Of a DNA stretch of 64,000 nt, positions 2,304 to 34,222 are shown piece after piece. The position numbers and the translations under genes were made by a program. This DNA comes from an uncultured Desulfocurvus sp. (GTDB lineage: Bacteria; Desulfobacterota; Desulfovibrionia; Desulfovibrionales; Desulfovibrionaceae). The notes below the pieces were generated by a model. It saw only the letters and a program-made list of their open reading frames with translations, ran no database searches and was not told where the DNA came from. The DNA lies in contig CAZCYB010000006.1 of the NCBI GenBank assembly GCA_964502805.1, positions 19,734 to 83,733 of the forward strand. The letters run 5' to 3'. Within the stretch, counting starts at the first letter, position 1. Each line of letters starts with the position of its first letter.

Positions 2304-2498
2304 GCGCTGCTCCTTCCGGTTATATGGACAGGCCGGGTGGCCTGACTGTCGCGCGCGCGGACGTGAGAAATCCGCGGGCGCACGTGTACCGTGTCGACCG
2401 GAGCTTGAGGAGGGCGTCGATGCTGTGGTGCGGCGGAGCGGTTGCGGGGTGCCAGCCGTGCCTGGCCTGTCCTTGCGGACCTGGCCCGGGTTATGTGG

Positions 2499-2674
2499 AC
2501 CCCGGGGCGCCGTGTCGTTGTTGAGTTTTGAACCTCGCTTAGCGAGGTGGGCTCCTCCGGCTCGCCGTCAGGCTCCCCGCTCTGGGCGGGCATGCACACG
2601 GGCAAGCGGCTGGCGGATCCCATTTATTGAGTATTGGCTCAAGAACTCGAAAACAATCACGAACTCCCCAGGGT
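2499..2674 (-). ncRNA. ssrS: 6S (SsrS)-like regulatory RNA candidate
   Basis: Lies in a gene-free 415-nt gap downstream of zapA. The transcript ends ACCCUGGGGAGUUCGUGAUUGUUUU and AAAACUCAACAACGACACGGCGCCCCGGGGU form a long imperfect closing helix. Internal UUGAGCCAAUACUCAAUAAA, and the hairpin CCUCGCUAAGCGAGG followed by GGUUCAA, resemble central-bubble elements of E. coli 6S as I recall that sequence. Exact ends are uncertain. Confidence 0.6.
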
Positions 2675-2718
2675 GACTCCCGCTTTCTCCTATACGCAAG
2701 GCCGTCGGTACCGGCCTA

Positions 2719-20900: not shown

Positions 20901-23900
20901 TCGTCCAGGTCGTTGGAACTGGTCGCCACGTTCAGGGTGTCGTACCCGCCGCCGCCGTTGATGGTGTCCGTGGAGTAGAGGTACCCGGTGCCGCCGTCGT
21001 TGGTGGTGATGGTGTCGTTGCCATCCCCGGCGTTCACCGTGTCGTCGCCGTTGCCTATGATGATGGTGTCGGCCTTGCTCGTGCCCACGATGGCGTTGTT
21101 GGCCGCTGTGCCCGTGATCTGCACGGTGTCCGCGCCCTGGTCCGCGTTCCAGCCGCTGCCGAAGGTCAGGCCGCTCAGGTCGAGGTTGGCGGAGTCCATG
21201 ATAACGCTCAGGGTGGTGTCGCCCGCGCCGGTGGAGTCCACCTGCAGGCCCGTGAGCGCCAGGATCTGGGAGGCGTTGAAGGCCGCGGAGACGCTGTTGC
21301 TCGTGGCGTCGAGCTTCACCTTCTCGATGTTAGTGAAGGTGATGGCCTGGGACAGGTCGTTGGTGCGCAGGTCGGCGTTGACGTAGGTGACCTTGATGGT
21401 GTCCGTGCCGTCTCCGCCGTCGATGCTGGTGACAGTCTCCAGCTTGTTCTGGTTCAGCCACAGGGTGTCGTTGTACTGCGAGCCCTGGGAGGTCTCGAAG
21501 CCGTCCACCGTGTCCGTGTTGCCGTAGGTGTCGGTGATGGTGCCCGCGCTGACGTTGATGGTGATGCCGCAGCCACCGGTTTCGCCCGCGTAGGTAAGGG
21601 CGTCGGTGCCGAGCCCGCCGTTCAGCGTGTCGTTCCCGGCCCCGCCGGTGATGGTGTCGTTGCCGTTGCCGCCGGAGATGGTGTCGTTGCCGTCGCCGCC
21701 GCTAAGGGTGTCGTTGTCGTCGCCGCCGTCGAGGATGTCCGCCCCGGCGCCGCCGGTGAGGATGTCGTTGCCGGTGCCGCCGTCCATGCTGTCGTCCCCC
21801 GCCTCGCCGGAGAGGGTGTCGGCGTTGGCGCCGCCCAGGATGGTGTCGTTGCCCGTTCCGCCGGTGATCTGGTCCGCGCCAGCGCCGCCCTTGAGGGTGT
21901 CGGCCCCGGCGCCGCCGGTGATGTACAGGGCGTAGTTGCCCACGCCGGAGGCGTCGAAGGTGAGGCTGTGCCCGGCGGTGAGGGCCGAGCCCACGATATC
22001 CACGTGGCCGTTGTAGTCCGCGCCCTGGGCCACCATCAGGCTGGTGGGGATGAGGTTGGTGGTGGCGTCGCCCAGCACCACGCGCTCCACGTAGCTCACG
22101 TTGTCCAGGTCGTGGGTCTGCCAGTTGCGGTTGGCCTCCACCACGGTGCCGTTGTCCAGCCGGGCGTAGTCCTCCACCTGGGCCACCTGGGTGAAGTTCA
22201 GGGTGTCGAACCCGTCGCCGCCCGCGATGGTGTCGCCCTGGGCCTTGAGGGGCCCGTCGGCGTAGTAGGTGGTGCTGCGCAGGCCCTGGCCCATGAAGAT
22301 GCTGTCGTCGCCCGCCCCGGCGTTGATGGTGTCCGTGCCGAGCTCGGCGTTGATGATGTCGGCCCCGTCGCCGCCGTTCACGGTGTCGTTGCCGTCGCCG
22401 CCGTCGAGGACGTCGTTGCCCTTGCCGCCGTGCAGGGTGTCGTCGCCCGCGCCGCCGTTCAAGGCGTCGTTGTCCACCACGGAATCGTCGGCGTCGCTGC
22501 CCCAGAGGACGTCGTTGCCCGCGCCGCCGCTGATGATGTCGTCGCCAGCCTCGCCGAAGATGGTGTCGTTGTCCGCGCCGCCGTCGATGATGTCGTTTCC
22601 TTCGTCGCCCTGGATGCTGTCCTCGCCAGCGCCGCCCTCGATGAGGTCGTTGCCCTCGGCGCCGTAGATGAAGTCGTTGCCGCCGCCGCCGTAGATGGCG
22701 TTGTTCGAGTCGTTGCCGATGATGACGTCGCCGAATTCGGAGCCGGTGACGTTGACCACGGACGAGCTGATGGAGGTCACCTGCTCGTTGTCGTACGCGC
22801 TCTGCTGCTCCCACATGGTGTGGTTGGCCAGGGTCTCGTAGTAGGGGCCGTCATCGCGCGGGCCGGGGTTGGGGAAGGAACTGTCGCCGTCCGGGTTCAG
22901 CGTGACGTACATGCCCTGGCTGGCCGTGAGGAAAGACAGGGAGTTGTCCGTGGTGATGTTGTTGATGGTGTCGGTGATTGTGGTGATGATGTCGTTGGGG
23001 TCGAAGCCGAGGTCACCAGGCTCGTTCAACTGGTCCAGCGCGCCCTGGGACAAGACGACCCCGTAGATTACGACAGAAGAAACCGGACCGGTGATGGGGC
23101 TATTGGGGTTGACCGGGTTGCTCGACATATCACCAATGCGAATAATGTCGCCAATGCCCAGCTTGCTTACATCGGTAAGGAAGGACGGCTGCTGTCCCTG
23201 TGCGGCCTGCTGGGCGGCGAAGTCCGCCGCCGCCTTGGCGGCATCGGCCAGGGCCTGGGCCTGCTGCGCGGCAAAGGCCTCCGTCGCCGCCTTGGCCGCC
23301 GCCTCCGCCGCCAGCTTGGCCGCCGCCTCCAGCTTGGCCGCCGCCGCCGCCGCGGCCTTGGCCGCCGCCTCGGCTGCGGCCTTGGCCGCCGGGTCCGTGG
23401 CCTTGGCCGCCGCCGCAGCAGCAGCTGCTGCCGCCGCCTTGGCCGCCGCCGCCTCGGCCGCCTTGGCCGCCGCCTCGGCCGCCGCCTTGGCCGAGGTGTC
23501 CGCCGCAGCCTGGACCTTGGGGTCCACCCGGCCTGTCTGCTGGCCGGGGGCGGTGGAGATGACGTCCGTAGGCGCGCCCTGGGTCTGGATGTTCGCCGGG
23601 GTGAGCGCCTGGAAATACTTGAATTCCTGGGGGGTCATGATGAGCACGGGGCCCGCGCCGAACTGGTTCACCTCCACCTTGACGCCGGAGGTGGACAGCA
23701 CCTGGAACTGCCCGCCGCCCAGGGGCTGCACGATGACGGGCTTGCCGTCGAAGACCATGATCAGGTGGTTCTCGCTGCCCTGGCCCGGAGGCGGAACGGT
23801 GTGGCCGGTCTCGGTGCCGCGTATGCCGATGGTGGCAAGCGGGCTCTGCATCTTGAAGCTTTCGGGGTTCTGCTTGACGATCTCGCCGGTGACGGTGCGG

Positions 23901-24166
23901 AAGGTGCCCTGGGCCATCTTGAACAGGGCCTGGCCCGTGCCCTTGTCGGCGTTGTAGACGTACTGGTCCAGGCTGACCTTGGAGGCCTCGCCCACGTTCA
24001 GCACGGTCTTGTCCAGGAACTCGATGGACCCGGCGGAACCCTTGGTGGTGGAAATGGTGTCGCCCTTGAACACGGGGTTGCCCTGTTCAAGGTTGCGGGT
24101 CCCTTCCGGACCCATGGCGTTCATCTGCCCCTTGACGACCTTGGCGACGCCGATCTGCTGGGCCAT
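17927..24166 (-). CDS. Giant RTX / hemolysin-type Ca-binding repeat protein with FecR-like N-terminal domain (probable type I secretion substrate)
   Basis: 2079-aa ORF. The N-terminus (VAKVVKGQMNAMGPEGTRNLEQGNPVFKGDTISTTKGSAGSIEFLDKTVLNVGE...IGIRGTE) looks like a FecR domain, followed by an Ala/Lys-rich linker. Several dozen GGxGxD nonapeptide repeats then occur in blocks. The C-terminus is GGAGNDLFIY...DTVTDFTTGTDKFAF, a T1SS-target-like tail with no Cys-rich or signal peptide features. Confidence 0.9.
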   Translation of the reverse strand: MAQQIGVAKVVKGQMNAMGPEGTRNLEQGNPVFKGDTISTTKGSAGSIEFLDKTVLNVGEASKVSLDQYVYNADKGTGQALFKMAQGTFRTVTGEIVKQNPESFKMQSPLATIGIRGTETGHTVPPPGQGSENHLIMVFDGKPVIVQPLGGGQFQVLSTSGVKVEVNQFGAGPVLIMTPQEFKYFQALTPANIQTQGAPTDVISTAPGQQTGRVDPKVQAAADTSAKAAAEAAAKAAEAAAAKAAAAAAAAAAAKATDPAAKAAAEAAAKAAAAAAAKLEAAAKLAAEAAAKAATEAFAAQQAQALADAAKAAADFAAQQAAQGQQPSFLTDVSKLGIGDIIRIGDMSSNPVNPNSPITGPVSSVVIYGVVLSQGALDQLNEPGDLGFDPNDIITTITDTINNITTDNSLSFLTASQGMYVTLNPDGDSSFPNPGPRDDGPYYETLANHTMWEQQSAYDNEQVTSISSSVVNVTGSEFGDVIIGNDSNNAIYGGGGNDFIYGAEGNDLIEGGAGEDSIQGDEGNDIIDGGADNDTIFGEAGDDIISGGAGNDVLWGSDADDSVVDNDALNGGAGDDTLHGGKGNDVLDGGDGNDTVNGGDGADIINAELGTDTINAGAGDDSIFMGQGLRSTTYYADGPLKAQGDTIAGGDGFDTLNFTQVAQVEDYARLDNGTVVEANRNWQTHDLDNVSYVERVVLGDATTNLIPTSLMVAQGADYNGHVDIVGSALTAGHSLTFDASGVGNYALYITGGAGADTLKGGAGADQITGGTGNDTILGGANADTLSGEAGDDSMDGGTGNDILTGGAGADILDGGDDNDTLSGGDGNDTISGGNGNDTITGGAGNDTLNGGLGTDALTYAGETGGCGITINVSAGTITDTYGNTDTVDGFETSQGSQYNDTLWLNQNKLETVTSIDGGDGTDTIKVTYVNADLRTNDLSQAITFTNIEKVKLDATSNSVSAAFNASQILALTGLQVDSTGAGDTTLSVIMDSANLDLSGLTFGSGWNADQGADTVQITGTAANNAIVGTSKADTIIIGNGDDTVNAGDGNDTITTNDGGTGYLYSTDTINGGGGYDTLNVATSSNDLDDWHGVVNVEKINVLGSSEVSVNAAASLVTSGNSLEIDAHTLTGNFNFDGSAAAGTLTVHGTVTGTDVLIGGAGTDDTITYAQASSAVTVDLTQKSQQNTGGGGLDTLDGFEKLIGSAYNDTLKGDQGNNEIWGGAGNDSIDGKWGTDTLHGDAGTDTISFASATSAAVFSLATSTSQNVSVGGGTGEGIVIAAHDGFENILGSNYNDTLTGDSGANTITGGTGNDVLDGGLGNDKLAPGTGDDIADGGAGTDTLDYSAIGVGTALTITGGMAQGAGSVTGTNINSTFSGMEVINGGQDSDIINLSNWTTGVTVHGGGDQGAEQITGTQGDDQIYMDVNLNSTDVIDGGAGDDTLHVISNGSENYDGVRSFKYIQFDNATTSVDAVFNNNTIFNGQAGTTITVSAPSLQAGQNLSLDASGLGDGYLYITGSAGNDQIMAGNAGLGTSSGDTVFAGAGDDTIYGYNGADLLKGEDGVDDIFGGEDNDTIYGGAGNDWLNGQMGNDTIYGDDGDDGIEGGAGNDTIYGGAGNDTITDDDGTKALYGGDGDDTFHVANDGANRLTSADTVDGGAGSDTLEYWTNGGSVLATTDWSGVVNVETILVKGSGAADVEADEDLCTTGQTLTINASAMSGTFSFNGADVTGTLNITGSDQDDIIHGGSGNDTINGGGGNDLLMGRIGNDTLDGGAGTDTVTYGPASAGVTVNLLAGTASDGYGCTDTLSNIENIKGTMGFGDTLSGNAGANVIEGFGGDDTIHGDDGNDVIYAGDGNDTVYGDAGNDTVHCGMGNDTMFGGDGTDTLSFEFSDLDVNVDLAITAPQVGIDEGGRTITIDGFEHLTGSAYSDDLFGNAENNQITGLGGADKLFGRAGADSLTGGAGNDLFIYKTQSEFGDTVTDFTTGTDKFAFYCTTDGGNFGFNNTSMVQSYFYTSEAAYNAADISTACFYHDSINNKLMFDADGDMGGGAAVMVAGGVGGTMAATDIIMVDANHNTVA

Positions 24167-24375: not shown

Positions 24376-24999
24376 TTACTGGGCTGTTTTCTTCTTGGAT
24401 TTCTTCGGCTTGTCCGCTGCGGGCTTGCCCTTGGTCTTGGCCGCCGCCTGGGCCTTGTCCTTGGACTTCTTGCCGGCCTTGGGCGCGTCGTTTTCTTTGC
24501 CGGGCTTGGCGGCCCTGCCGGATTTCTCGGCCTTTTCGCCCTTCGCGCCCTTGCGCTTGGCCTTGATGGCCTCGGCCCGGGCGGCCTTGCGCACGGCGGC
24601 GGGCTCGTACATGGGCACCTTGCCGATGCCCAGGAAGCCCGGATGCACGCCCAGCTCCCCGGCGGCCTGGCCCCAGCTCTTGCCGTCCCTGCGCATGTCC
24701 TCCACCTGGGCCGGGCTTACCCCGGCCACGTGGGCCAGGGCCTCGGCGCGGGTCTTCTCCAGGCGGGCCTCGCTGGCCTCGTAGGCGTCGGCGGCCTGGC
24801 GCGCGGCGTCCTTGCCCCGGCTGCGGGCCTTCCAGGCCTCGTCGCGCAGCCGCGCGTTCTCCTCCAGCACGGCGTCCATGCGCCGCAGCACCGGGTCGTC
24901 GCCCAGGGCCAGGGCCTCCGCCGCCAGGGGGCCGGACGCGCAGGCCAGTATCAGGATGGCCGCCAGGGCCAGCACGGTGCGCCGGGGATGTGCCGTCAT
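24376..24999 (-). CDS. Secreted or lipoprotein-like protein with histone-H1-like Lys/Ala-rich C-terminal tail
   Basis: The ATG at 24999 is preceded by GGAGAG. Sequence begins MTAHPRRTVLALAAILILACASG (signal or lipobox-like). The tail is AIKAKRKGAKGEKAEKSGRAAKPGKENDAPKAGKKSKDKAQAAAKTKGKPAADKPKKSKKKTAQ. I recognise no family. Confidence 0.55.
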   Translation of the reverse strand: MTAHPRRTVLALAAILILACASGPLAAEALALGDDPVLRRMDAVLEENARLRDEAWKARSRGKDAARQAADAYEASEARLEKTRAEALAHVAGVSPAQVEDMRRDGKSWGQAAGELGVHPGFLGIGKVPMYEPAAVRKAARAEAIKAKRKGAKGEKAEKSGRAAKPGKENDAPKAGKKSKDKAQAAAKTKGKPAADKPKKSKKKTAQ

Positions 25000-25066
25000 G
25001 TTCGCTCTCCGTATTCGCTGGCGCGCAGTGCCGCCCCTTGCCTGGGCGCGCACGCGCGGTGTGTTC

Positions 25067-26470
25067 TCATCGCCCGCCCGTGGCGGTGTCCGTCCCATCG
25101 GCGGCGTGGCCGCCAGCATCCCTGCCCTGGCTCCGGGCCGCCGCCAGGCCCAGGCACAGGGCCCCGGCCGTGGCCGGGACGTGCAAGGCCGGGGAAAGGG
25201 CCGAGCAGATCAAAAGCGTGGCCAAAAGCCCGAAGCCGAAGCGCGACCGCGCGGGCCGGGCCGGAAGGACGCAGAAAAGCGCCCCGGCCAGCACGGCCAC
25301 TGGGCCCGCGGCGCCCCAGGCGGCCAAAAGCCGCAGGGCCGAGGAGGGGATCTCGAAGATGGCCACGGCCAGGCCGCCGCCTTCCATGTCCAGCCCGGGC
25401 AGCAGCCACTCGTCGCTGATGGCCAGGGCCAGTGGCTCGCCCAGGGGCAGGCCGGTGAACGGGGCCATGGGGCTCTGGCCCAGGGCCTCGATGGTGGCGG
25501 TGAAGTACCAGGCCAGGCCCAGCTCCTCCCGCCCGCTGGCCATGTGCGGCAGGGGCAGGGTCAGGCTCATCCAGATGAGCAGCAGGCACACGCTGGCCAG
25601 GGCCAGGCGGGGGCGCAGGGGCCCGCGCGCGAGCGCGAGCAGGACGAAGCCCGCCGTGGCCAGGCCCGGGCGGGAGAACCCGGCGAACAGCCCGGCCAGG
25701 ATGAGCCAGCGCGGCAGCGCGGCAAGGGGCGTCCGGGCCTCGGGGTCGTCGTCCAGGGTGGCGCACAGGGCCAGGCAGAGCAGGGTGGCCAGGATGTCCG
25801 CCGTGGCCGGTCCGCTGGCCGCGACGCTTCCCGCTACACCGCCCGTCGCACCGAGGAACAGGCCCCCGCCCAGCACCAGGCCCTTGGCGGCGATGGCCGT
25901 GGCCAGGAAATCGAGCACCAAAAGCGCCCCCAGGGCGCCGCCCAGCCGGGCGATGGCCGCGCGCGGGGCCGGGCCGAAGTGGGCCGTCCACAGCCCGGCG
26001 AACAGGGCCAGGGCGGGCAGCCTGAGCTCGTCCAGCAGGGGGGCCAGGCTCTGGGCCTGGGCCAGCCGGGGGCCGAGGTATCTGTGCAGGGCCAGGGCCA
26101 GGGCGGCCACGGCCACGGCCAGGCCCAGGCGCGTCAGAAGCCGGGGGCGGGCCGGGGAGGGTTGCCCGCCATGGCCGGAGGCGGCGCGCCGGGGGGCCAG
26201 GGCGCTCATGCCCAGGCTGTACAGCAGGGCCAGGGCGGCCAGGGCGGCATAGAGGCCCATGCCCTGGGGCGTGAAATGGCGCAGGGCGTCGGGCTTGCCC
26301 GTGACCTTGGCCGCCAGCAGGGCCAGGGGCGCCAGCAGCAGAGCCGCGAAGAATGGCAGCTGCGCCATGACGGCCCCGGCCAGGGTGGCCGGGCGCGTGG
26401 TCTGGGGCTGGGGCGTGGAGGCGTCGGGCATGCTCGCTGGGCTCCGTCTATTCCGTCTGCTGGGGGCCAT
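25067..26470 (-). CDS. Polytopic integral membrane protein, function unknown
   Basis: 467-aa ORF with many Leu/Ala-rich hydrophobic segments. It is the only frame here with protein-like composition. Alternative starts exist at 26431 (GGAG upstream) and 26368. Confidence 0.5.
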   Translation of the reverse strand: MAPSRRNRRSPASMPDASTPQPQTTRPATLAGAVMAQLPFFAALLLAPLALLAAKVTGKPDALRHFTPQGMGLYAALAALALLYSLGMSALAPRRAASGHGGQPSPARPRLLTRLGLAVAVAALALALHRYLGPRLAQAQSLAPLLDELRLPALALFAGLWTAHFGPAPRAAIARLGGALGALLVLDFLATAIAAKGLVLGGGLFLGATGGVAGSVAASGPATADILATLLCLALCATLDDDPEARTPLAALPRWLILAGLFAGFSRPGLATAGFVLLALARGPLRPRLALASVCLLLIWMSLTLPLPHMASGREELGLAWYFTATIEALGQSPMAPFTGLPLGEPLALAISDEWLLPGLDMEGGGLAVAIFEIPSSALRLLAAWGAAGPVAVLAGALFCVLPARPARSRFGFGLLATLLICSALSPALHVPATAGALCLGLAAARSQGRDAGGHAADGTDTATGGR

Positions 26471-26537: not shown

Positions 26538-28607
26538 TTACAGCTCCACCTGGCTGCCCAGCTCCACCACGCGCCCCGGCGGGATGCCGAAGAAGGTGGT
26601 GGCGTTCCAGGCGTTGCGCGACATGAAGGCGAACAGCGCCTTGCGCCAGGAGGCCATCTTCGACGGCCCGCCGGTGAGCAGGGTCTCTCGGCCCAGGTAG
26701 AAGGTGGTGGCCTGGAGCTGGGCGTCCAGTCCGTGGGCCTTGGCCATCTCCAGTATCTCCGGCACGCTGGGGGTCTGCATGAAGCCGTAGCGGGCGATGA
26801 CCCGGAAGAAGCCGTGGCCCAGGGGCTTCACGGTCAGGCGCTCCGCCCTGGGCACGTAGGGCGTCTCCGCGCTCTGGATGGACAAGAGCAGCACCTGCTC
26901 GTGCAGGATCTTGTTGTGCTTGAAGTTGTGCAGCAGCGTGATGGGCGTTCCCGTGGGCGAGACGGACATGAACACGCCCGTGCCCGGCACGCGCACCGGC
27001 TTCTGCGAGGCCACCACGCTGTTCAGGAACAGCTCCGTGGGCAGGCCCAGCTTGGCGAACTGCACGCCCAGGGCCCTTTTGCCCTCGCGCCAGGTGGCCA
27101 TGGCGATCATGATCAGCCCGGCCACGGTGAGGGTGAACCAGCCGCCGTCGGCGATCTTGAGCAGGTTGGCCGAGAGGAAGGACAGGTCGAAGAGCAGGAA
27201 CAGGGCCACCAGGGGCAGGGCCTTCCAGGCGGACCAGCCCCAGAGCATGGTGGACACGAACAGGAAGAAGATGGAGGTGATGGTCATGTCGATGGTGACG
27301 GCGATGCCGTAGGCCGCGGCTAGGCCGCTGGAGCTCTTGAAGGCCAGCACCAGGCCCAGGCAGGCCACCATCATGGCCCGGTTCACCCCGGGCAGGTAGA
27401 TCTGGCCCTTGGTGTGGGCGCTGGTGTTCACGATGCGGATGCGCGGGCAGAAGCCCATCTGCACCGCCTGCTGCGTGAGCGAGAACACCCCCGAGATCAT
27501 GGCCTGGGAGGCGATGACCGTGGCGAAGGTGGCCAGGGCCACCATGGGGTAGAGCAGGTTCTCGGGCACCAGGCCGTAGAAGGGGTTGAAGGACTTTTCC
27601 GGGCTGGCCAGCAAGAGCGCCCCCTGGCCGAAGTAGTTGAGCAGCAGGGCGGGCAGCACCAGCACGCACCAGGAGAGGCGGATGGGCGCGCGGCCGAAGT
27701 GGCCCATGTCCGCGTACAGGGCCTCGCCGCCGGTGATGCACAGCACCACCGAGCCCAGCACCACCATGCCGTGCAGGCGGTTCTCGATGAAGAAGCGCAC
27801 CGCGTGCAGGGGGTTCACGGCGGCCAGGATCTCCGGGTTATCCAGAATGGCCGAGAGGCCAAGCCCCGCCAGGGTGGCGAACCAGAGGATCATCACCGGG
27901 CCGAAGACCTTGCCGATGCTGTCCGTGCCGTGCTTCTGCATCAGGAACAGGCCCACCAGCACCGCGCAGGTGCCGGGGATGATGAAGGGCGTGGCGGCGT
28001 CCGTGGCCACGCTCAGTCCCTCCATGGCCGAGAGCACGGAGATGGCCGGGGTGATGATGCCGTCGCCGTACAGCAGCGCCGCGCCGAAGGTGGCCAGGAA
28101 GACCACGATGGCGTACTTGGCGCGGCTTTCGGCCTGGACCTTGGCCTGCAGCAGGGCCAGCAGGGCGAACACGCCGCCCTCGCCCTTGTTGTCGGCCCGG
28201 AGCACGAAGACCACGTACTTCACGCTCACCACCACGATGAGCGACCAGAGGATGAGCGAGAGCACGCCCAGGATGTTGGCGGGCAGAAGCGCGATGGCGT
28301 GGGGGCCGTGGAAGCATTCCTTCACGGCGTAGAGCGGGCTGGTGCCGATGTCTCCGTAGACCACGCCCAGTGCGGCCAGGGCCAGGGCCAGGGTGCGGGG
28401 ATTGCCGTGGGGCGCGTGGCCGCCGCCCTCGTGGGCGGGCTGTGCGGGCTGGCCGGCCTGGCTGGGCTGGGCGGGCTGTGCGGGCGCGGGCGGGACCTCG
28501 GCCTGGGGCGCTCCACCGCCTTCCTCGGCCACGCGGGCGAACAGCCGCGACAGGCGCGGCGCCAGCAGGGCCAGGGGACGGAACACTGCCCGGGGGGGAA
28601 ACGGCAT
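26538..28607 (-). CDS. kup: KUP/HAK/KT-family potassium uptake protein (copy 1)
   Basis: Contains LGVVYGDIGTSPLYAVKECF plus about 12 TM segments and a cytoplasmic C-domain. The ATG at 28607 (MPFPPRAVF) is preceded by GGAGG. The longer track start at 28796 would run through the riboswitch. Confidence 0.93.
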   Translation of the reverse strand: MPFPPRAVFRPLALLAPRLSRLFARVAEEGGGAPQAEVPPAPAQPAQPSQAGQPAQPAHEGGGHAPHGNPRTLALALAALGVVYGDIGTSPLYAVKECFHGPHAIALLPANILGVLSLILWSLIVVVSVKYVVFVLRADNKGEGGVFALLALLQAKVQAESRAKYAIVVFLATFGAALLYGDGIITPAISVLSAMEGLSVATDAATPFIIPGTCAVLVGLFLMQKHGTDSIGKVFGPVMILWFATLAGLGLSAILDNPEILAAVNPLHAVRFFIENRLHGMVVLGSVVLCITGGEALYADMGHFGRAPIRLSWCVLVLPALLLNYFGQGALLLASPEKSFNPFYGLVPENLLYPMVALATFATVIASQAMISGVFSLTQQAVQMGFCPRIRIVNTSAHTKGQIYLPGVNRAMMVACLGLVLAFKSSSGLAAAYGIAVTIDMTITSIFFLFVSTMLWGWSAWKALPLVALFLLFDLSFLSANLLKIADGGWFTLTVAGLIMIAMATWREGKRALGVQFAKLGLPTELFLNSVVASQKPVRVPGTGVFMSVSPTGTPITLLHNFKHNKILHEQVLLLSIQSAETPYVPRAERLTVKPLGHGFFRVIARYGFMQTPSVPEILEMAKAHGLDAQLQATTFYLGRETLLTGGPSKMASWRKALFAFMSRNAWNATTFFGIPPGRVVELGSQVEL

Positions 28608-28821
28608 GGACGGGACCTCCGAAGCGGACGCGGGGGCTGCCCCGCGCTGCGGAGGTGGGCCCCTTTCGATGCCTGCGAGGTGAGCTGACGGGCTGGGACC
28701 GAAAGGTGTCCCGCGCCTTGCTTCGGCGCTGCGCCCCGGTGAGGAGTGGTTCCCCCGCTTCCGGCCACGGGCCTGGAATTCGGCAGGGCACTTCATACTT
28801 GGCCGGGCGAGAGGGTGTCAA
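28608..28821 (-). promoter_or_regulatory. c-di-AMP riboswitch (ydaO/kimA class) with promoter and SD-sequestering helix, leader of kup copy 1
   Basis: The minus strand has TTGACA-N18-TATGAA. It then reads GCCGAAUUCC...AGCGGGGGAACCAC...CCGGGGCGCAGCG...ACACCUUUCGGUCCCAGCCCGUCAGCUCACCUCGCAGGCAUCGAAAGGGG. This matches remembered ydaO-motif blocks (GCCGAAUCC, GGGGGA-CC, GGGG-G, CCCG-CAGCUAACCUCG-AGGC). The anti-SD ACCUCCG pairs with the SD CGGAGGU 8 nt before the AUG. Confidence 0.8.
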
Positions 28822-28905
28822 GGCCACGCTGGTAGACCCCCCCCGCGAGGCGGAGGGGGAGGGGCGACTCGGGGGCAGGCTGCCTGCGGGCGGCGCCTTG
28901 CCCGG

Positions 28906-30876
28906 CTAGAGCTGCACCTGGCTGCCCAGCTCGACCACGCGCCCCGGCGGGATGCCGAAGAAGGTGGTGGCGTTCCAGGCGTTGCGCGACATGTAGGCGA
29001 AGAGCGTCTTGCGCCAGGCGCTCATGCGCGTGTCGCCGCCGGTCAGCAGGGTCTCGCGGCCCAGGTAGAAGGTGGTGGCCTCCATGGGCGCGCTCAGGCC
29101 GTGGTCCCTGGCCTTGAGCAGGATGTCCGGAACGCTGGGGGTCTGCATGAAGCCGTAGCGCGCCAGCACGCGGAAGAAGCCATGGCCCAGGGGCGTCACC
29201 TCCAGGCGCTCGGCCTCGGGCACGAAGGGCGTCTCCGCGCTCTGGATGGACAAGAGCAGCACCTGCTCGTGCAGCACCTTGTTGTGCTTGAAGTGGTGCA
29301 GGAGCGTGATGGGCGTGCCCGTGGGGGAAACGGACATGAACACGCCCGTGCCCGGGATGCGCAGCGGCGCCTGCTGGGACACCAGGCTGTCCAGGAACAG
29401 GTTGATGGGCAGGCCCAGCTGCGCGAACTGGCGGCCCAGGGCCTTCTTGCCGTCGCGCCAGGTCAGCATGGCCATCATGATGACCAGGGCCACGGTGATG
29501 GTGAACCAGCCGCCGTCGAAGAACTTGAGCAGGTTGGCGCCCAGGTAGGTCACGTCGAAGGCCAAAAACAGCGCGATGAGCGGGATGGTCTTCCAGTAGG
29601 GCCAGCGCCACAGGGTGTGCACCACGTAGAAGTAGATCACCGAGGTGATGCCCATGGTGGCGGTGACGGCGATGCCGTAGGCCCCGGCCAGGCCGCTGGA
29701 GCTCTTGAAGGCCAGTACCAGCCCCAGGCAGGCCACCATCATGGCGTTGTTCACCCCGGGCAGGTAGATCTGGCCCTTGGTCTCGGCGCTGGTGTTCACG
29801 ATGTGGATGCGCGGGCAGAAGCCCAGCTGCACGGCCTGCTGCGTCAGCGAATAGACCCCGGAGATCATGGCCTGGGAGGCGATGACCGTGGCCGCCGTGG
29901 ACAGGACCACCATGGGGTAGAGCAGGGCCCGGGGCACCAGGCCGTAGAAGGGGTTGAAGGCCAGCTCCGGGTGGTCGAGCAGCAGCGCCCCCTGCCCGAA
30001 GTAGTTGCACAAAAGCGCGGGCAGCACCATGGCGTACCACGATAGCCGGATGGGCACTGCGCCGAAGTGGCCCATGTCGGCGTAGAGGGCCTCGCCGCCG
30101 GTGATGCACAGCACCACCGAGCCCAGCACCACCAGGCCGTGCAGCCTGTTGGCCAGGAAGAAGTCCACGGCGTACGCCGGGTTCACGGCGGCCAGGATCT
30201 CCGGGCTCTGGGCCACCTCGGCCAGGCCCAGGGCGGCGATGACCGCGAACCAGACCACCATGAGCGGGCCGAAGACCTTGCCGATGCGCTCCGTGCCGTG
30301 CTTCTGCATGCGGAACAGCGCGATGAGGATGAGGCAGGTGCCGGGGATGATGAAGGGACGGGCCTTGTCCGTGGCCACGTCCAGGCCCTCCATGGCCGAG
30401 AGCACGGAGATGGCCGGGGTGATGATGCCGTCGCCGTAGAGCAGGGCCGCTCCGAACAGGGCCGCGGTGATGAGCAGGGCGTGGCCGGTCTTGCCCGTGC
30501 CGTCCACCGAGCCCTTGACCAGCGCCAGGAGCGCGAAGATGCCGCCCTCGCCCTTGTTGTGGGCGCGCATGATGAACATGACGTACTTGAGGCTGACCAC
30601 GATGAGCAGGGACCAGAAGATGAGCGAGAGCACGCCCATGACGTTGGCGGGCAGGAGCTCCACGGCGTGGGGGCCGTGGAAGCATTCCTTCACGGCGTAG
30701 AGGGGGCTGGTGCCGATGTCGCCGTAGACCACGCCCAGGGCGGCCAGGGCCAGGGCCATGGTGCGGCCGCCGTGGTGGCCGTGGCCTTCTCCGCCGTGGG
30801 GCGGGGAATCCTCGGGCAGGGCCAGGGCGGGTCGCGGCGCAATGAGGCCGCGCAGAAACCGCAAGGCGGCGGGCAT
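28906..30876 (-). CDS. kup: KUP/HAK/KT-family potassium uptake protein (copy 2)
   Basis: Carries the same signature, ALAALGVVYGDIGTSPLYAVKECFHGPHA. The ATG at 30876 (MPAALRFLRG) is preceded by GGAGG. The longer track start at 30921 lies inside the leader helix. Confidence 0.93.
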   Translation of the reverse strand: MPAALRFLRGLIAPRPALALPEDSPPHGGEGHGHHGGRTMALALAALGVVYGDIGTSPLYAVKECFHGPHAVELLPANVMGVLSLIFWSLLIVVSLKYVMFIMRAHNKGEGGIFALLALVKGSVDGTGKTGHALLITAALFGAALLYGDGIITPAISVLSAMEGLDVATDKARPFIIPGTCLILIALFRMQKHGTERIGKVFGPLMVVWFAVIAALGLAEVAQSPEILAAVNPAYAVDFFLANRLHGLVVLGSVVLCITGGEALYADMGHFGAVPIRLSWYAMVLPALLCNYFGQGALLLDHPELAFNPFYGLVPRALLYPMVVLSTAATVIASQAMISGVYSLTQQAVQLGFCPRIHIVNTSAETKGQIYLPGVNNAMMVACLGLVLAFKSSSGLAGAYGIAVTATMGITSVIYFYVVHTLWRWPYWKTIPLIALFLAFDVTYLGANLLKFFDGGWFTITVALVIMMAMLTWRDGKKALGRQFAQLGLPINLFLDSLVSQQAPLRIPGTGVFMSVSPTGTPITLLHHFKHNKVLHEQVLLLSIQSAETPFVPEAERLEVTPLGHGFFRVLARYGFMQTPSVPDILLKARDHGLSAPMEATTFYLGRETLLTGGDTRMSAWRKTLFAYMSRNAWNATTFFGIPPGRVVELGSQVQL

Positions 30877-31094
30877 GAAAATACCTCCGGTACGAGTGGG
30901 TGCGGGGGAGGCCCCGTCCAAACCGGAGGTCTTCCCCTTTCGACGCCTGCGAGGTTAGCTGACGGGCTCGGACCGAAAGGTGTCCTACGCGCTGATGCGC
31001 GATGCGCCCCAAGGGATGTGGGTCCCCCGCTCCCGGGAAACGTTCCCGGAATTCGGCAACGCGACGATTACGCCCGGAGCCGCGGGGCTGTCAA
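30877..31094 (-). promoter_or_regulatory. c-di-AMP riboswitch (ydaO/kimA class) with promoter and SD-sequestering helix, leader of kup copy 2
   Basis: The minus strand has TTGACA-N18-TAATCG. It then reads GUUGCCGAAUUCCGGGAACGUUUCCCGGGAGCGGGGGACCCACAUCCCUUGGGGCGCAUCGCGCAUCAGCGCGUAGGACACCUUUCGGUCCGAGCCCGUCAGCUAACCUCGCAGGCGUCGAAAGGGG. A perfect 9-bp helix, ACCUCCGGU/ACCGGAGGU, covers the SD. Confidence 0.85.
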
Positions 31095-31160
31095 GCGGTG
31101 GACGAGGTTGCCAAGGCGGGCGCGGGCGGGTACCCTGGCGCAAATGGACGGCGCGGGGGC

Positions 31161-31187
31161 TATGGTTTTCCCGTTTTCTGCCGATAT
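31161..31187 (+). promoter_or_regulatory. Sigma28 (FliA)-type promoter candidate for tatA-motA-motB-pilZ
   Basis: TATGGTTT-N11-GCCGATAT compared with the consensus TAAAGTTT-N11-GCCGATAA. It lies about 75 nt upstream of the tatA-like ATG. Confidence 0.45.
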
Positions 31188-31262
31188 CAACATCAGGTAT
31201 GCGCTTTGCATACCCGCTGGCCGTGGAGGAGCGCTCCTGGCCCGCGCCTTTGGGGGGCGTGC

Positions 31263-31451
31263 ATGAACCTGTTGGAGATCCTCCTCATTGTCATCATCGG
31301 TTTGGTATTGTTCAACTCGGGCAAGCTGCCGCAGGTGGGCGGCGGCATCGGAAAGGCCATCAGCAACTTCAAGCGCAGCCTGAACGAGCCCGAGGAGATT
31401 GACGTCACGGAGAAGAAAAAGGACCCGGGCGACACGCCGCCGAAGTCCTGA
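31263..31451 (+). CDS. tatA: TatA/TatE-family small membrane protein
   Basis: 62 aa: MNLLEILLIVIIGLVLFNSGKLPQVGGGIGKAISNFKRSLNE... This is a TM helix followed by an F-x-x-G-KLP hinge and an amphipathic helix, typical of TatA. Confidence 0.7.
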   Translation: MNLLEILLIVIIGLVLFNSGKLPQVGGGIGKAISNFKRSLNEPEEIDVTEKKKDPGDTPPKS

Positions 31452-33454: not shown

Positions 33455-34222
33455 ATGACCGCCGAAACCGCCCCGTTCAGGAATGTGGCCGCGCCGGACC
33501 TCTCGCCCGGCGCGCGCGTCTTTGTCGTGGCCCTCAAGGACCCGCTGCGCGAACGCATCGACGTGCGCCAGAGCACCGTGCTGCACCAGGAGGGCGACGT
33601 GCTCTTCCTGGCCCAGACCGACCCGCCCCTGGAGCCGGAGCACGCCGGGCTGAGCCTGGAAGTGGCCGCCCTGGCCCCGGACGACGGCGGCGAACTCGGC
33701 CCCGTGGGCTACGCCGCGCGGCTGCTCAACGTCACCGACTCCTTCCAGATCGGCGAGGCCGACGCCGTGCCCGCCCTGGCCGTAACCGCGCCCGCGCCCG
33801 GCGAGTTCTACGAGACCAGCCTGCGCATGCACTACCGCGTCGCCGTGGACGAGAGCATGAACGTGTTCGTGCGGCTGGAAGGCCTGCCGGACATCGACGA
33901 GGCCGAACTGCTCGACTTCTCCGCCGGTGGCGCGCGCGTGCGCCTGGACCTCTCCGCCAACCCCGGCCTGCGCATCCCCCTGGGACAGCGCCTGCCCGTC
34001 AAACTCCTGTTCATCGGCTCCGGCTACGCAGACGCCATCGGCGTGGTGCGCAGCGCCACCAGCGGGACCATCGCCGCCGAGGACGGAACCACCCGCCCCG
34101 CCCTCGTCCTGGGCCTGTGCTTCACCAACATGGAGATCCGGGACATCCGCTACCTCGAGCGCATGGTCGCCCGCACCGTGTCCTCCTGCCGCCAGCGCGA
34201 ACGCGAGGCCCAGTACCTGTAA
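33455..34222 (+). CDS. YcgR-like PilZ-domain c-di-GMP receptor (flagellar brake candidate)
   Basis: 255 aa. PilZ signatures are RxxxR (LRMHYRV) and DxSxxG (LDFSAGGARV) about 30 residues later. It starts 10 nt after the motB stop. Confidence 0.8.
   Translation: MTAETAPFRNVAAPDLSPGARVFVVALKDPLRERIDVRQSTVLHQEGDVLFLAQTDPPLEPEHAGLSLEVAALAPDDGGELGPVGYAARLLNVTDSFQIGEADAVPALAVTAPAPGEFYETSLRMHYRVAVDESMNVFVRLEGLPDIDEAELLDFSAGGARVRLDLSANPGLRIPLGQRLPVKLLFIGSGYADAIGVVRSATSGTIAAEDGTTRPALVLGLCFTNMEIRDIRYLERMVARTVSSCRQREREAQYL

What the first reader, a model, noticed from the sequence alone, without database searches (positions are those of the whole stretch)
28608..28821. c-di-AMP (ydaO/kimA-class) riboswitch in the leader of kup copy 1
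The minus-strand leader carries the hallmark blocks of the ydaO motif:
- GCCGAAUUCC
- AGCGGGGGAACCAC
- CCGGGGCGCA
- CCCAGCCCGUCAGCUCACCUCGCAGGCAUCGAAAGGGG

It starts about 7 nt after a TTGACA-N18-TATGAA promoter. Downstream, ACCUCCG can pair with the SD CGGAGGU, with a nested GC hairpin (GCGGGG/CCCCGC) between them. This suggests translational control.

c-di-AMP is the established master regulator of K+ uptake, so the gene association is coherent.
Basis: partly seen in the sequence, partly recalled or inferred. Interest (0 to 1): 0.7.

Follow-up and report, generated by a model that had tools for sequence, protein, structure and literature searches.

The report
c-di-AMP riboswitch upstream of kup
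This is a genuine but ordinary member of a well-known RNA switch family that senses the bacterial signal c-di-AMP; it sits in front of a potassium-uptake gene and most likely blocks that gene's translation when the signal is high.

Summary
The finding holds. Rfam's c-di-AMP model (RF00379) matches window 28656-28795 (-) over its full length at 68.6 bits (gathering 38, E 8e-14). This lies 48 nt upstream of the ATG (28607) of a 689-aa Kup K+ transporter.

A second, better copy (89.9 bits, 30929-31068) precedes a tandem kup paralogue that is 76% identical. The nearest relatives are Desulfovibrionaceae (Humidesulfovibrio).

The family's pseudoknot is present: loop CCUUUCG x tail CGAAAGG, 7 bp, matched by 0 of 500 shuffles. 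It covaries across lineages.

Downstream, an invariant CCUCCG anti-SD pairs with the SD in 12 of 12 related leaders (6-11 bp). No terminator is present, so translational repression is the likeliest output.

How the ligand toggles this helix is inferred. I favour a relay in which the pseudoknot tail, an SD mimic, competes for the anti-SD. Equilibrium folding did not reproduce a switch.

Caveats:
- Copy 1 carries substitutions at 4 family-conserved junction nucleotides.
- Its orthologues are degenerate or deleted in several relatives, so it may be weakened.
- No diadenylate cyclase lies in the window.

The kup association has already been predicted in the literature. This is a new member of a known kind, of low to moderate interest.

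The parts
28816..28821 (-). -35 box TTGACA of the copy 1 promoter
   Evidence: Sequence. TTGACA is invariant at 29-36 nt upstream of P1 in nearly all related kup leaders. It was not found by the strict consensus scan.
28792..28797 (-). -10-like hexamer TATGAA, 18-nt spacer from the -35 box
   Evidence: Sequence. Only the TA is conserved at this position across leaders. The transcription start just 5' of P1 is inferred, not shown.
28656..28795 (-). c-di-AMP (ydaO/RF00379) riboswitch aptamer, copy 1
   Evidence: cmscan: 68.6 bits, gathering 38, E 8.4e-14, model positions 1-134 of 134.
28782..28785 (-). P1 5' strand (UGCC)
   Evidence: Rfam alignment structure line. Pairs with 28670-28673.
28670..28673 (-). 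P1 3' strand (GGCA)
   Evidence: Rfam alignment structure line.
28700..28706 (-). Pseudoknot strand in the loop of the last aptamer hairpin (CCUUUCG)
   Evidence: RNAduplex with the tail: 7 bp, -9.6 kcal/mol, 0 of 500 tail shuffles as good. The pairing covaries in 19 of 20 aptamers.
28662..28668 (-). Pseudoknot 3' strand in the aptamer tail (CGAAAGG); the G-run GGGG is 28660-28663
   Evidence: The tail also folds into a small hairpin with the anti-SD (GGGG:CCUC, -3.4 kcal/mol).
28650..28656 (-). Anti-SD ACCUCCG
   Evidence: CCUCCG is invariant in 12 of 12 Desulfovibrionaceae leaders. It pairs with the SD in the MFE fold and in every leader counted.
28630..28645 (-). Apical GC hairpin GCGGGG-CAGC-CCCCGC inside the SD-sequestering stem-loop
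   Evidence: MFE fold. A GC hairpin is present at this position in all related leaders, with varying sequence.
28615..28621 (-). Shine-Dalgarno CGGAGGU (GGAGG at 28616-28620), 8 nt before the ATG
   Evidence: Sequence. GGAGG-N5-9-AUG is conserved in all leaders. Unpaired probability <=0.03 and opening cost about 10 kcal/mol.
26538..28607 (-). kup copy 1 CDS (689 aa, ATG at 28605-28607)
   Evidence: Pfam K_trans E 3e-183 and K_trans_C E 2.2e-50. An identical 689-aa protein, P0001, is in the public collection.
30929..31068 (-). Second c-di-AMP riboswitch aptamer (copy 2), paralogous leader
   Evidence: cmscan: 89.9 bits, E 1e-19. The leaders are 80% identical from the -35 box to the SD.
30883..30930 (-). 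Copy 2 expression platform: anti-SD ACCUCCGGU (30922-30930) pairing with SD ACCGGAGGU (30883-30891)
   Evidence: 9 contiguous bp.
28906..30876 (-). kup copy 2 CDS (656 aa)
   Evidence: Pfam K_trans E 2.8e-183. 76% identical to copy 1. Equals P0032 on the same public contig as P0001.

Best explanation
Window 28656-28795 (-) is a class member of the c-di-AMP (ydaO/kimA, RF00379) riboswitch. It is transcribed from its own TTGACA promoter as the 5' leader of kup copy 1.

Shown:
- The aptamer, with all helices and the family pseudoknot.
- A conserved stem-loop that buries the Shine-Dalgarno sequence in a 7-bp helix with an invariant CCUCCG anti-SD.
- No intrinsic terminator.

Inferred:
- It is an OFF switch acting on translation initiation.
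- When c-di-AMP is bound, the 3' tail (CGAAAGG) is docked into the pseudoknot. The anti-SD 4 nt downstream is then free to hold the SD closed, and Kup synthesis falls.
- When c-di-AMP is low, the undocked G-rich tail competes for the anti-SD and raises the fraction of mRNA with an open SD. The tail (CGAAGG in most relatives, CGAAAGG here) mimics the SD CGGAGG.
- The tandem paralogue kup copy 2 is controlled in the same way by its own, better-conserved riboswitch.
For: - Family membership: 68.6 bits against a gathering score of 38, full length.
- Pseudoknot: 7 bp, 0 of 500 shuffles as good, covarying across lineages (CCUUUCG/CGAAAGG, CUCUUCG/CGAAGGG, CUUCCAA/UUGGAGG, CUUUCAG/CUGGAAG).
- Gene: Kup.
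- Conservation: RF00379 aptamers sit upstream of kup in L081, L083, L085, L086, L087, L168, L170, L001, L036, L047, L057, L069, L140 and L148.
- Platform: CCUCCG is invariant while the neighbouring spacer and linker drift. There are 6-11 contiguous anti-SD:SD bp in 12 of 12 leaders. The geometry is fixed: 3-5 nt spacer, 30-37 nt between the strands, 5-9 nt from SD to AUG.
- The SD is predicted paired, with an opening cost of 7-15 kcal/mol. No terminator is present.
- Tail:anti-SD hairpins exist in every intact leader (-3.4 to -5.2 kcal/mol) and are much stronger in the distant L148 (-7.4) and L001.
- Acidobacteriota kup leaders place the SD (UUGGAGG) itself in the pseudoknot tail. This shows that tail docking is what communicates with the ribosome-binding site in this gene family.
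- Literature: c-di-AMP riboswitches are OFF switches on K+ importers (PMC6488665, PMC11302148). The ydaO class is grouped with ligand-promoted docking of the expression platform (PMC10907184). A translational c-di-AMP riboswitch with the same GGAG/CUCC/GGAG relay idea was proposed for C. glutamicum nlpC (PMC9960051).
Against: - Equilibrium folding predicts the SD is sequestered whether the tail is blocked or free. The difference in opening energy is small and inconsistent in sign, both here and in all homologues tested.
- The tail:anti-SD hairpin is only 4 bp here.
- Covariation in the anti-SD:SD helix is minimal, because both strands are constrained by the SD sequence.
- Copy 1 has substitutions at 4 junction nucleotides (28729, 28712, 28695, 28682) that are invariant in 11 other intact aptamers and upper-case in the Rfam consensus.
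- The orthologous downstream-copy aptamer is degenerate (L081 at 54.5 bits; L170 below threshold) or deleted (L168) in relatives.
- No diadenylate cyclase gene lies in the window.
Confidence: 0.6

Rival explanations
1. Copy 1's aptamer is a decaying relic. It is still recognisable by sequence but no longer binds c-di-AMP, or binds it only weakly. kup copy 1 is then governed by a constitutive SD-masking hairpin and by its promoter, and only copy 2 is truly c-di-AMP controlled.
For: - Five of 67 otherwise invariant columns are changed. Four of them are unpaired junction nucleotides that are also conserved family-wide.
- The A>C change at 28682 is shared with the clearly degenerate L081 downstream copy.
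- Orthologous downstream-copy aptamers score 54.5 bits (L081), fall below threshold (L170/L171) or are deleted (L168, the closest relative with context). Upstream copies always score 90-96 bits.
- The most similar Kup proteins include a stand-alone paralogue with no aptamer at all (L082, L084, L169, L172).
Against: - 68.6 bits is still 30 bits above the gathering score.
- All helices are kept through compensatory changes relative to copy 2.
- The pseudoknot is a perfect 7 bp.
- The anti-SD, SD and spacing are intact, whereas L081_dn has lost its anti-SD.
- L083 and L085 keep high-scoring downstream copies (88-90 bits).
Confidence: 0.2
2. The riboswitch acts mainly on transcription or mRNA fate. 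The SD stem-loop would work as a weak attenuator, or the untranslated leader would trigger Rho-dependent termination or decay. SD masking would then be secondary.
For: - The best-studied c-di-AMP riboswitches (B. subtilis kimA/ydaO, B. thuringiensis kdp) terminate transcription (PMC6488665, PMC9960051 introduction).
- In some paralogues the SD hairpin is followed by a U-rich run: win_c2 UAUUUUC, L085_dn UUUUUUC.
- L087 has a terminator-like GGGGUGGGGG...CCCCACCC-UUUU hairpin.
Against: - No intrinsic terminator was detected in 28400-31400.
- Copy 1's hairpin is followed by UCCCGUCC, with no U tract.
- The U-rich run is not conserved across leaders, whereas the anti-SD:SD complementarity is.
- Rho involvement cannot be tested here.
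Confidence: 0.12
3. The match is a chance resemblance in GC-rich DNA and not an RNA element.
For: The overall MFE of the leader is not unusual for its composition (z = -0.9).
Against: - E 8e-14, full-length covariance-model match.
- A paralogous copy and more than 14 orthologous examples lie in the same position before kup.
- The pseudoknot covaries.
Confidence: 0.01

Closest known systems
c-di-AMP riboswitch, Rfam RF00379 (ydaO/kimA leader of Bacillus subtilis; structures 4QLM/4QLN)
   Same: Same aptamer family by covariance model. It has the same pseudo-dimeric helix set, and the same pseudoknot between the last hairpin loop and the 3' tail (in the 4QLM sequence, GAAGGAG x CUCCUUC). It sits upstream of a K+ importer and is expected to be an OFF switch.
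   Different: The Bacillus members use an intrinsic terminator. This one has no terminator and instead has an SD-sequestering stem-loop. The host is a high-GC Desulfovibrionaceae-like bacterium. The gene is kup rather than kimA or ktrAB. Copy 1 has 4 substitutions at conserved junction nucleotides.
c-di-AMP riboswitch of the Bacillus thuringiensis / B. anthracis kdpFABC operon (PMC6488665, PMC11302148)
   Same: A c-di-AMP aptamer in the 5' UTR that represses a K+ uptake system. That paper already lists kup among the predicted riboswitch-associated transporter genes (citing Nelson 2013 and Block 2010).
   Different: It has an experimentally shown transcription-termination platform 143 nt upstream of the start codon. 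Here the platform abuts the start codon and masks the SD.
C. glutamicum nlpC c-di-AMP riboswitch (PMC9960051)
   Same: It lacks a canonical terminator. Reporter data point to repression at the level of translation. The authors propose that a CUCC element pairs with an upstream GGAG without ligand and with the RBS GGAG with ligand. This is the same three-element relay inferred here.
   Different: The regulated gene is a cell-wall peptidase and the host is an actinobacterium. The relay is also only a hypothesis there.
kup leaders of Acidobacteriota / Vicinamibacterales
   Same: An RF00379 aptamer directly upstream of kup, with its output on the ribosome-binding site.
   Different: There the pseudoknot 3' strand UUGGAGG is itself the SD, 6-7 nt before GUG, so ligand-promoted docking would mask it directly. 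The window uses an extra anti-SD and a separate SD.
KupA/KupB of Lactococcus lactis as direct c-di-AMP receptor proteins (Quintana et al. 2019, cited in PMC11302148)
   Same: The same second messenger restrains the same transporter family.
   Different: Control is post-translational, by protein binding. Here it acts at the mRNA level.

Membership tests
c-di-AMP riboswitch (Rfam RF00379, ydaO-yuaA/kimA class) | Covariance-model score at or above the curated gathering threshold, over the full model | tested here: met
   68.6 bits against 38, E 8.4e-14, model 1-134 of 134, at 28656-28795 (-). Copy 2 scores 89.9 bits.
c-di-AMP riboswitch (Rfam RF00379, ydaO-yuaA/kimA class) | All consensus helices can form (P1 through the last hairpin) | tested here: met
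   The cmscan alignment flags only two non-canonical pairs, both in the short CC/GG hairpin. Stem sequences differ from copy 2 but remain paired.
c-di-AMP riboswitch (Rfam RF00379, ydaO-yuaA/kimA class) | Pseudoknot of 5-7 bp between the loop of the last hairpin and the 3' tail | tested here: met
   CCUUUCG (28700-28706) x CGAAAGG (28662-28668): 7 bp, -9.6 kcal/mol, 0 of 500 shuffled tails as good. The pairing covaries in 19 of 20 aptamers. A pseudoknot of 5-6 bp is stated in PMC5393176.
c-di-AMP riboswitch (Rfam RF00379, ydaO-yuaA/kimA class) | Conserved unpaired junction nucleotides that build the two ligand pockets | tested here: inconclusive
   Most are present. However 28729 (U>G), 28712 (A>G), 28695 (G>C) and 28682 (A>C) depart from positions that are invariant in 11 other intact aptamers and upper-case in the Rfam consensus. 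I could not obtain the structure papers to say which of these contact the ligand.
c-di-AMP riboswitch (Rfam RF00379, ydaO-yuaA/kimA class) | Located in the sense-strand 5' leader of a gene for K+/osmolyte transport or cell-wall metabolism | tested here: met
   It lies 48 nt upstream of the ATG of a Kup transporter, between a conserved promoter and the SD. kup is a previously predicted association (PMC6488665).
c-di-AMP riboswitch (Rfam RF00379, ydaO-yuaA/kimA class) | Selective binding of c-di-AMP (two molecules) | not testable with these tools
   Needs in-line probing, ITC or a similar assay.
c-di-AMP riboswitch (Rfam RF00379, ydaO-yuaA/kimA class) | An expression platform whose fold depends on aptamer occupancy | tested here: inconclusive
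   A conserved SD-masking stem-loop is adjacent to the pseudoknot tail. Tail-free and tail-blocked equilibrium models give the same SD accessibility.
c-di-AMP signalling organism | The genome encodes a diadenylate cyclase (DAC/DisA_N domain) | not testable with these tools
   A six-frame search of the 64-kb window for the DGA...G[TSA]RH[RT] DAC motifs found nothing credible. The source contig could not be retrieved and carries no name. Indirect support: relatives keep 90-96-bit aptamers, and DACs are reported in most bacteria (PMC12448109).

The most novel reading that the evidence does not exclude
The two tandem kup paralogues may be set to different c-di-AMP thresholds. Copy 1's aptamer, with four substitutions at normally invariant junction nucleotides, would be a re-tuned sensor (lower affinity, single-site, or even altered ligand) rather than a decaying one. 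Both leaders would use a so far uncharacterised three-element relay, in which the pseudoknot 3' strand is an SD mimic that competes with the real SD for one invariant anti-SD.
Probability: 0.15. Interest if true: 0.5.

Novelty: new member of a known kind. Interest (0 to 1): 0.25.

Why it matters
It adds a clean, comparatively well-supported example of c-di-AMP control of K+ uptake at the mRNA level in a Gram-negative sulfate-reducer lineage (Desulfovibrionaceae-like). This biology has been studied almost only in Firmicutes and Actinobacteria.

The leader is also a compact candidate for working out how c-di-AMP riboswitches control translation rather than termination. The set of relatives helps here, because it spans several states:
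- intact upstream copies;
- intact, weakened, degenerate and deleted downstream copies;
- Acidobacteriota versions with the SD inside the pseudoknot.

Together these form a natural series for studying how a riboswitch is lost after gene duplication.

None of this changes current understanding. The family, its ligand and its link to kup are already known or predicted.

Tried and rejected
- **Myxococcota origin.** My first guess, from the high GC content and the GTDB hits (best only 63%), was wrong. The protein search places the nearest Kup relatives in Humidesulfovibrio/Desulfovibrio.
- **Pseudoknot partner.** I first thought the tail paired with the loop of the short CC...GG hairpin. I rejected this after comparing with the crystallised 4QLM sequence and running the duplex and covariation test. 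The partner is the loop of the last hairpin.
- **Strict promoter and terminator scan.** It found no sites. The promoter is supported only by conservation.
- **Equilibrium models of the switch.** I compared three states: tail blocked, tail free and 3' half free. They showed no ligand-proxy-dependent change in SD accessibility for the window or for L001, L148, L088, L168, L170 and L087. The method is uninformative here and is not evidence either way.
- **Other alternative pairings.** I considered the anti-SD pairing with the aptamer GCGGGGG strand, and the SD pairing with the aptamer ACCUCG strand. Neither frees the SD, so I did not adopt them.
- **Source contig and organism name.** Retrieving the contig failed, and so did getting a name.
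- **Structure and discovery papers.** Nelson 2013, Ren & Patel, Gao & Serganov, Jones & Ferre-D'Amare and Galperin 2023 are not held. Ligand-contact assignments could therefore not be checked.
- **Diadenylate cyclase.** The motif search of the window was negative.
- **Downstream unannotated genes.** Pfam and NCBIfam gave nothing for the two genes.

Full report
**1. The observation**

- The four aptamer blocks.
- TTGACA (28816-28821), an 18-nt spacer, then TATGAA (28792-28797).
- The P1 strand UGCC, starting at 28785.
- ACCUCCG (28650-28656) and CGGAGGU (28615-28621).
- The hairpin GCGGGG/CCCCGC (28640-28645 / 28630-28635).
- ATG at 28605-28607.

A scan of the whole window against Rfam 15 at gathering thresholds gives RF00379 (c-di-AMP riboswitch, ydaO/yuaA leader) at 28656-28795 (-). 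The score is 68.6 bits against a gathering score of 38, E 8.4e-14, covering model positions 1-134 of 134.

**2. Surroundings**

The ORF that starts 48 nt after the aptamer (26538-28607, 689 aa) is a complete Kup/HAK/KT K+ transporter: K_trans E 3e-183, K_trans_C E 2e-50. An identical 689-aa protein exists in the public collection (P0001), which supports this start codon.

Immediately upstream lies a second kup (28906-30876, 656 aa). It is 76% identical to the first and has its own RF00379 aptamer at 30929-31068, at 89.9 bits. The two leaders are paralogous from the -35 box to the SD, with 80% column identity.

Neighbouring genes:
- Divergent TatA and MotA/ExbB genes lie upstream.
- Two genes without family matches and a 2079-aa FecR/RTX-repeat protein lie downstream.

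**3. Source organism**

The best match among GTDB species representatives is only 63%. The large protein collection places the nearest named relatives in Desulfovibrionaceae. These are Humidesulfovibrio sp. at 79-82%, H. mexicanus at 76%, and Desulfovibrio MAGs.

The source contig could not be fetched and carries no name.

**4. Relatives**

The same synteny (TatA/MotA, kup, kup, two unknown genes, giant protein) occurs in L081, L083 (H. mexicanus), L085, L168 and L170.

RF00379 scores:

| Locus | Upstream kup (bits) | Downstream kup, orthologue of window copy 1 |
|---|---|---|
| L168 | 95.7 | aptamer deleted |
| L083 | 96.2 | 89.6 bits |
| L085 | 94.6 | 88.2 bits |
| L081 | 91.5 | 54.5 bits |
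| L170 | 89.9 | below threshold |
| window | 89.9 | 68.6 bits |

- In L081 the downstream aptamer core is degenerate and the anti-SD is lost.
- In L170/L171 a remnant remains that keeps P1, the tail, the anti-SD and the SD but has lost the CCCGUCAGCUAACC core.
- In L168, the closest relative with context, the aptamer is gone. What remains is a 105-nt intergenic region with the promoter and CCGGAGGUCCUGUCCAUG.

Single-copy kup genes in L086 (Fundidesulfovibrio magnetotacticus) and L087 also carry the aptamer.

A third kup paralogue class has no aptamer even at E<=1. It lies next to amtB-glnK or TatA in L082, L084, L169 and L172, and is 79-84% identical to copy 1.

An nhmmer profile found the aptamer in front of kup in about 14 of the 167 kup loci fetched up to that point, which span many phyla. 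These include a Myxococcota-like MAG (L001), Longimicrobium (L036) and several Acidobacteriota (L047, L057, L069, L136, L140). The association is therefore recurrent but patchy.

**5. Aptamer anatomy**

The cmscan alignment forms all consensus helices.

The family's pseudoknot is reported as 5-6 bp (PMC5393176). In the crystallised 4QLM RNA the matching complement is tail GAAGGAG x loop CUCCUUC of the last hairpin.

In copy 1 it is loop CCUUUCG (28700-28706) x tail CGAAAGG (28662-28668): 7 bp, -9.6 kcal/mol, with 0 of 500 shuffled tails as good. Across 19 of 20 aptamers the two strands covary:
- CUCUUCG / CGAAGGG
- CUUCCAA / UUGGAGG
- CUUUCAG / CUGGAAG
- CUCUUCC / GGAGGAG

Weak point: compared with 11 other intact aptamers, copy 1 differs at 5 of 67 invariant columns.
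- 28774 G>A is a stem bulge.
- 28729 U>G, 28712 A>G, 28695 G>C and 28682 A>C are unpaired junction positions.
- Those four are also upper-case in the Rfam consensus.
- 28682 A>C is shared with the degenerate L081 copy.

I could not obtain the structure papers, so I cannot say which of these touch the ligand.

**6. Expression platform**

No intrinsic terminator is detected between 28400 and 31400.

After the tail G-run come these elements, in order:
- a 4-nt spacer;
- the anti-SD ACCUCCG;
- a 3-bp middle stem and a 6-bp GC hairpin;
- the SD CGGAGGU;
- 8 nt, then AUG.

The minimum-free-energy fold contains the 7-bp anti-SD:SD helix.

In an alignment of 12 Desulfovibrionaceae leaders, CCUCCG is invariant while the spacer, the hairpin loop and the linker to the SD drift. 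Anchored counting gives:
- 6-11 contiguous anti-SD:SD bp in 12 of 12 leaders;
- a spacer of 3-5 nt;
- 30-37 nt between the two strands;
- 5-9 nt from SD to AUG.

Covariation is slight: one A-U to U-A flip and some G-C to G.U changes. Both strands are tied to the SD sequence, which limits what can vary.

The promoter is supported by conservation only. TTGACA lies 29-36 nt upstream of P1, followed by N17-18 and a TA-initiated hexamer, in nearly all leaders.

**7. Mechanism**

Shown: aptamer, pseudoknot, SD-masking helix, and absence of a terminator.

Inferred: an OFF switch on translation initiation.

The Acidobacteriota leaders put the SD (UUGGAGG, 6-7 nt before GUG) inside the pseudoknot tail. 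This fits the view that ligand binding promotes docking of the tail onto the aptamer (PMC10907184).

In the window's lineage the tail is not the SD but resembles one: CGAAGG in most relatives and CGAAAGG here, against CGGAGG. It can pair with the anti-SD just downstream:
- -3.4 kcal/mol for copy 1;
- up to -5.2 kcal/mol in close relatives;
- -7.4 kcal/mol in L148, and much stronger in L001.

The simplest model is a relay.
- With ligand, the tail is locked in the pseudoknot, the anti-SD holds the SD, and kup is not translated.
- Without ligand, the free tail competes for the anti-SD and more mRNA has an open SD.

The same three-element idea was proposed, untested, for the C. glutamicum nlpC riboswitch, which appears to act on translation (PMC9960051).

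Against the relay, equilibrium partition-function models show the SD paired in every state. The unpaired probability is <=0.03 and the opening cost is 7-15 kcal/mol. Opening energies do not differ consistently between tail-blocked and tail-free states, either here or in six homologues. The switching step therefore remains an inference. It may depend on co-transcriptional kinetics or tertiary effects that these tools do not model.

**8. Rivals**

- (a) Copy 1 is a weakened or dead relic. This is supported by the junction substitutions and by repeated loss of the downstream-copy aptamer in relatives. It is opposed by a score still 30 bits above threshold, maintained helices, a perfect pseudoknot and an intact platform.
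- (b) Control is mainly transcriptional or Rho-dependent. Some paralogues have U-rich runs after the SD hairpin, and L087 has a terminator-like hairpin. Copy 1 has none, and the U run is not conserved.
- (c) Chance. This is excluded.

**9. Comparison with what is known, and novelty**

This is a member of RF00379. K+ importers are the classic targets of the family. kup is already listed among predicted riboswitch-associated genes across several phyla, including Proteobacteria (PMC6488665, citing Nelson 2013 and Block 2010).

What is somewhat new here:
- the tandem kup pair with one riboswitch each;
- the invariant anti-SD platform in Desulfovibrionaceae;
- the contrast with SD-in-pseudoknot versions in Acidobacteriota;
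- the apparent evolutionary decay of the downstream copy.

I rate it a new member of a known kind, of low to moderate interest.

**10. Limits**

- No binding or expression data are available.
- The diadenylate cyclase criterion could not be tested. The window holds no DAC motif and the genome was unavailable. The high conservation of the upstream-copy aptamers in relatives is only indirect evidence that c-di-AMP is made.

Noticed in passing
window 30929-31068 (-), platform 30883-30930, kup copy 2 at 28906-30876: There is a second, better-scoring c-di-AMP riboswitch (89.9 bits) with the same promoter/aptamer/anti-SD/SD layout in front of the upstream tandem kup paralogue. The upstream copy is the strongly conserved one in all relatives (90-96 bits).
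   Followed up: yes
L168:3395-3501, L170:3262-3501, L081:3272-3461 compared with window 28608-28821: The riboswitch of the downstream kup copy is evolutionarily labile. It is intact in L083 and L085, substituted in the window, degenerate with a lost anti-SD in L081, a sub-threshold remnant in L170/L171, and deleted in L168, where the promoter and SD are retained.
   Followed up: yes
L047:492-640, L057:3469-3640, L069:3298-3500, L136:1-70, L140:127-330: Acidobacteriota/Vicinamibacterales kup leaders carry RF00379 aptamers whose pseudoknot 3' strand UUGGAGG is itself the Shine-Dalgarno, 6-7 nt before a GUG (CUG in L057) start. This is a direct SD-in-pseudoknot design, unlike the relay design in the window.
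   Followed up: partly
L082, L084, L169, L172 (kup at 3501 or 1533): A third kup paralogue class is 79-84% identical to window copy 1. It lies next to amtB-glnK and/or TatA-VTT genes and has no c-di-AMP aptamer even at E<=1.
   Followed up: partly
L087:3183-3500: This Desulfovibrio MAG kup leader has a much longer platform. It includes a terminator-like hairpin, GGGGUGGGGG-AAGCUUU-CCCCACCC followed by UUUU, just before the SD. It may be a transcriptional variant of the same riboswitch-kup pairing.
   Followed up: no
window 2495-2677 (-): A 6S (SsrS) RNA gene: RF00013, 103.8 bits, full length.
   Followed up: no
window 24376-26470 (-) and 17927-24166 (-): Two genes with no Pfam or NCBIfam match follow kup copy 1 on the same strand and are syntenic in all tandem-kup relatives. 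In relatives they encode about 400-420 aa and 190-220 aa. After them comes a 2079-aa FecR plus RTX-repeat protein (HemolysinCabind, 23 stretches). The first two could be co-transcribed with kup.
   Followed up: partly
window 28400-28607 (-), N-terminus of Kup copy 1: About 70 residues precede the K_trans domain, including a Pro/Ala/Gln-rich low-complexity stretch (AQPAQPSQAGQPAQPAHEGGGH). The extension varies in length and sequence among paralogues, but the SD-AUG arrangement is conserved.
   Followed up: no
window 33455-34222 (+): A PilZ-domain protein (a c-di-GMP receptor-type domain, E 8e-7) lies a few kb from the c-di-AMP-controlled kup genes.
   Followed up: no
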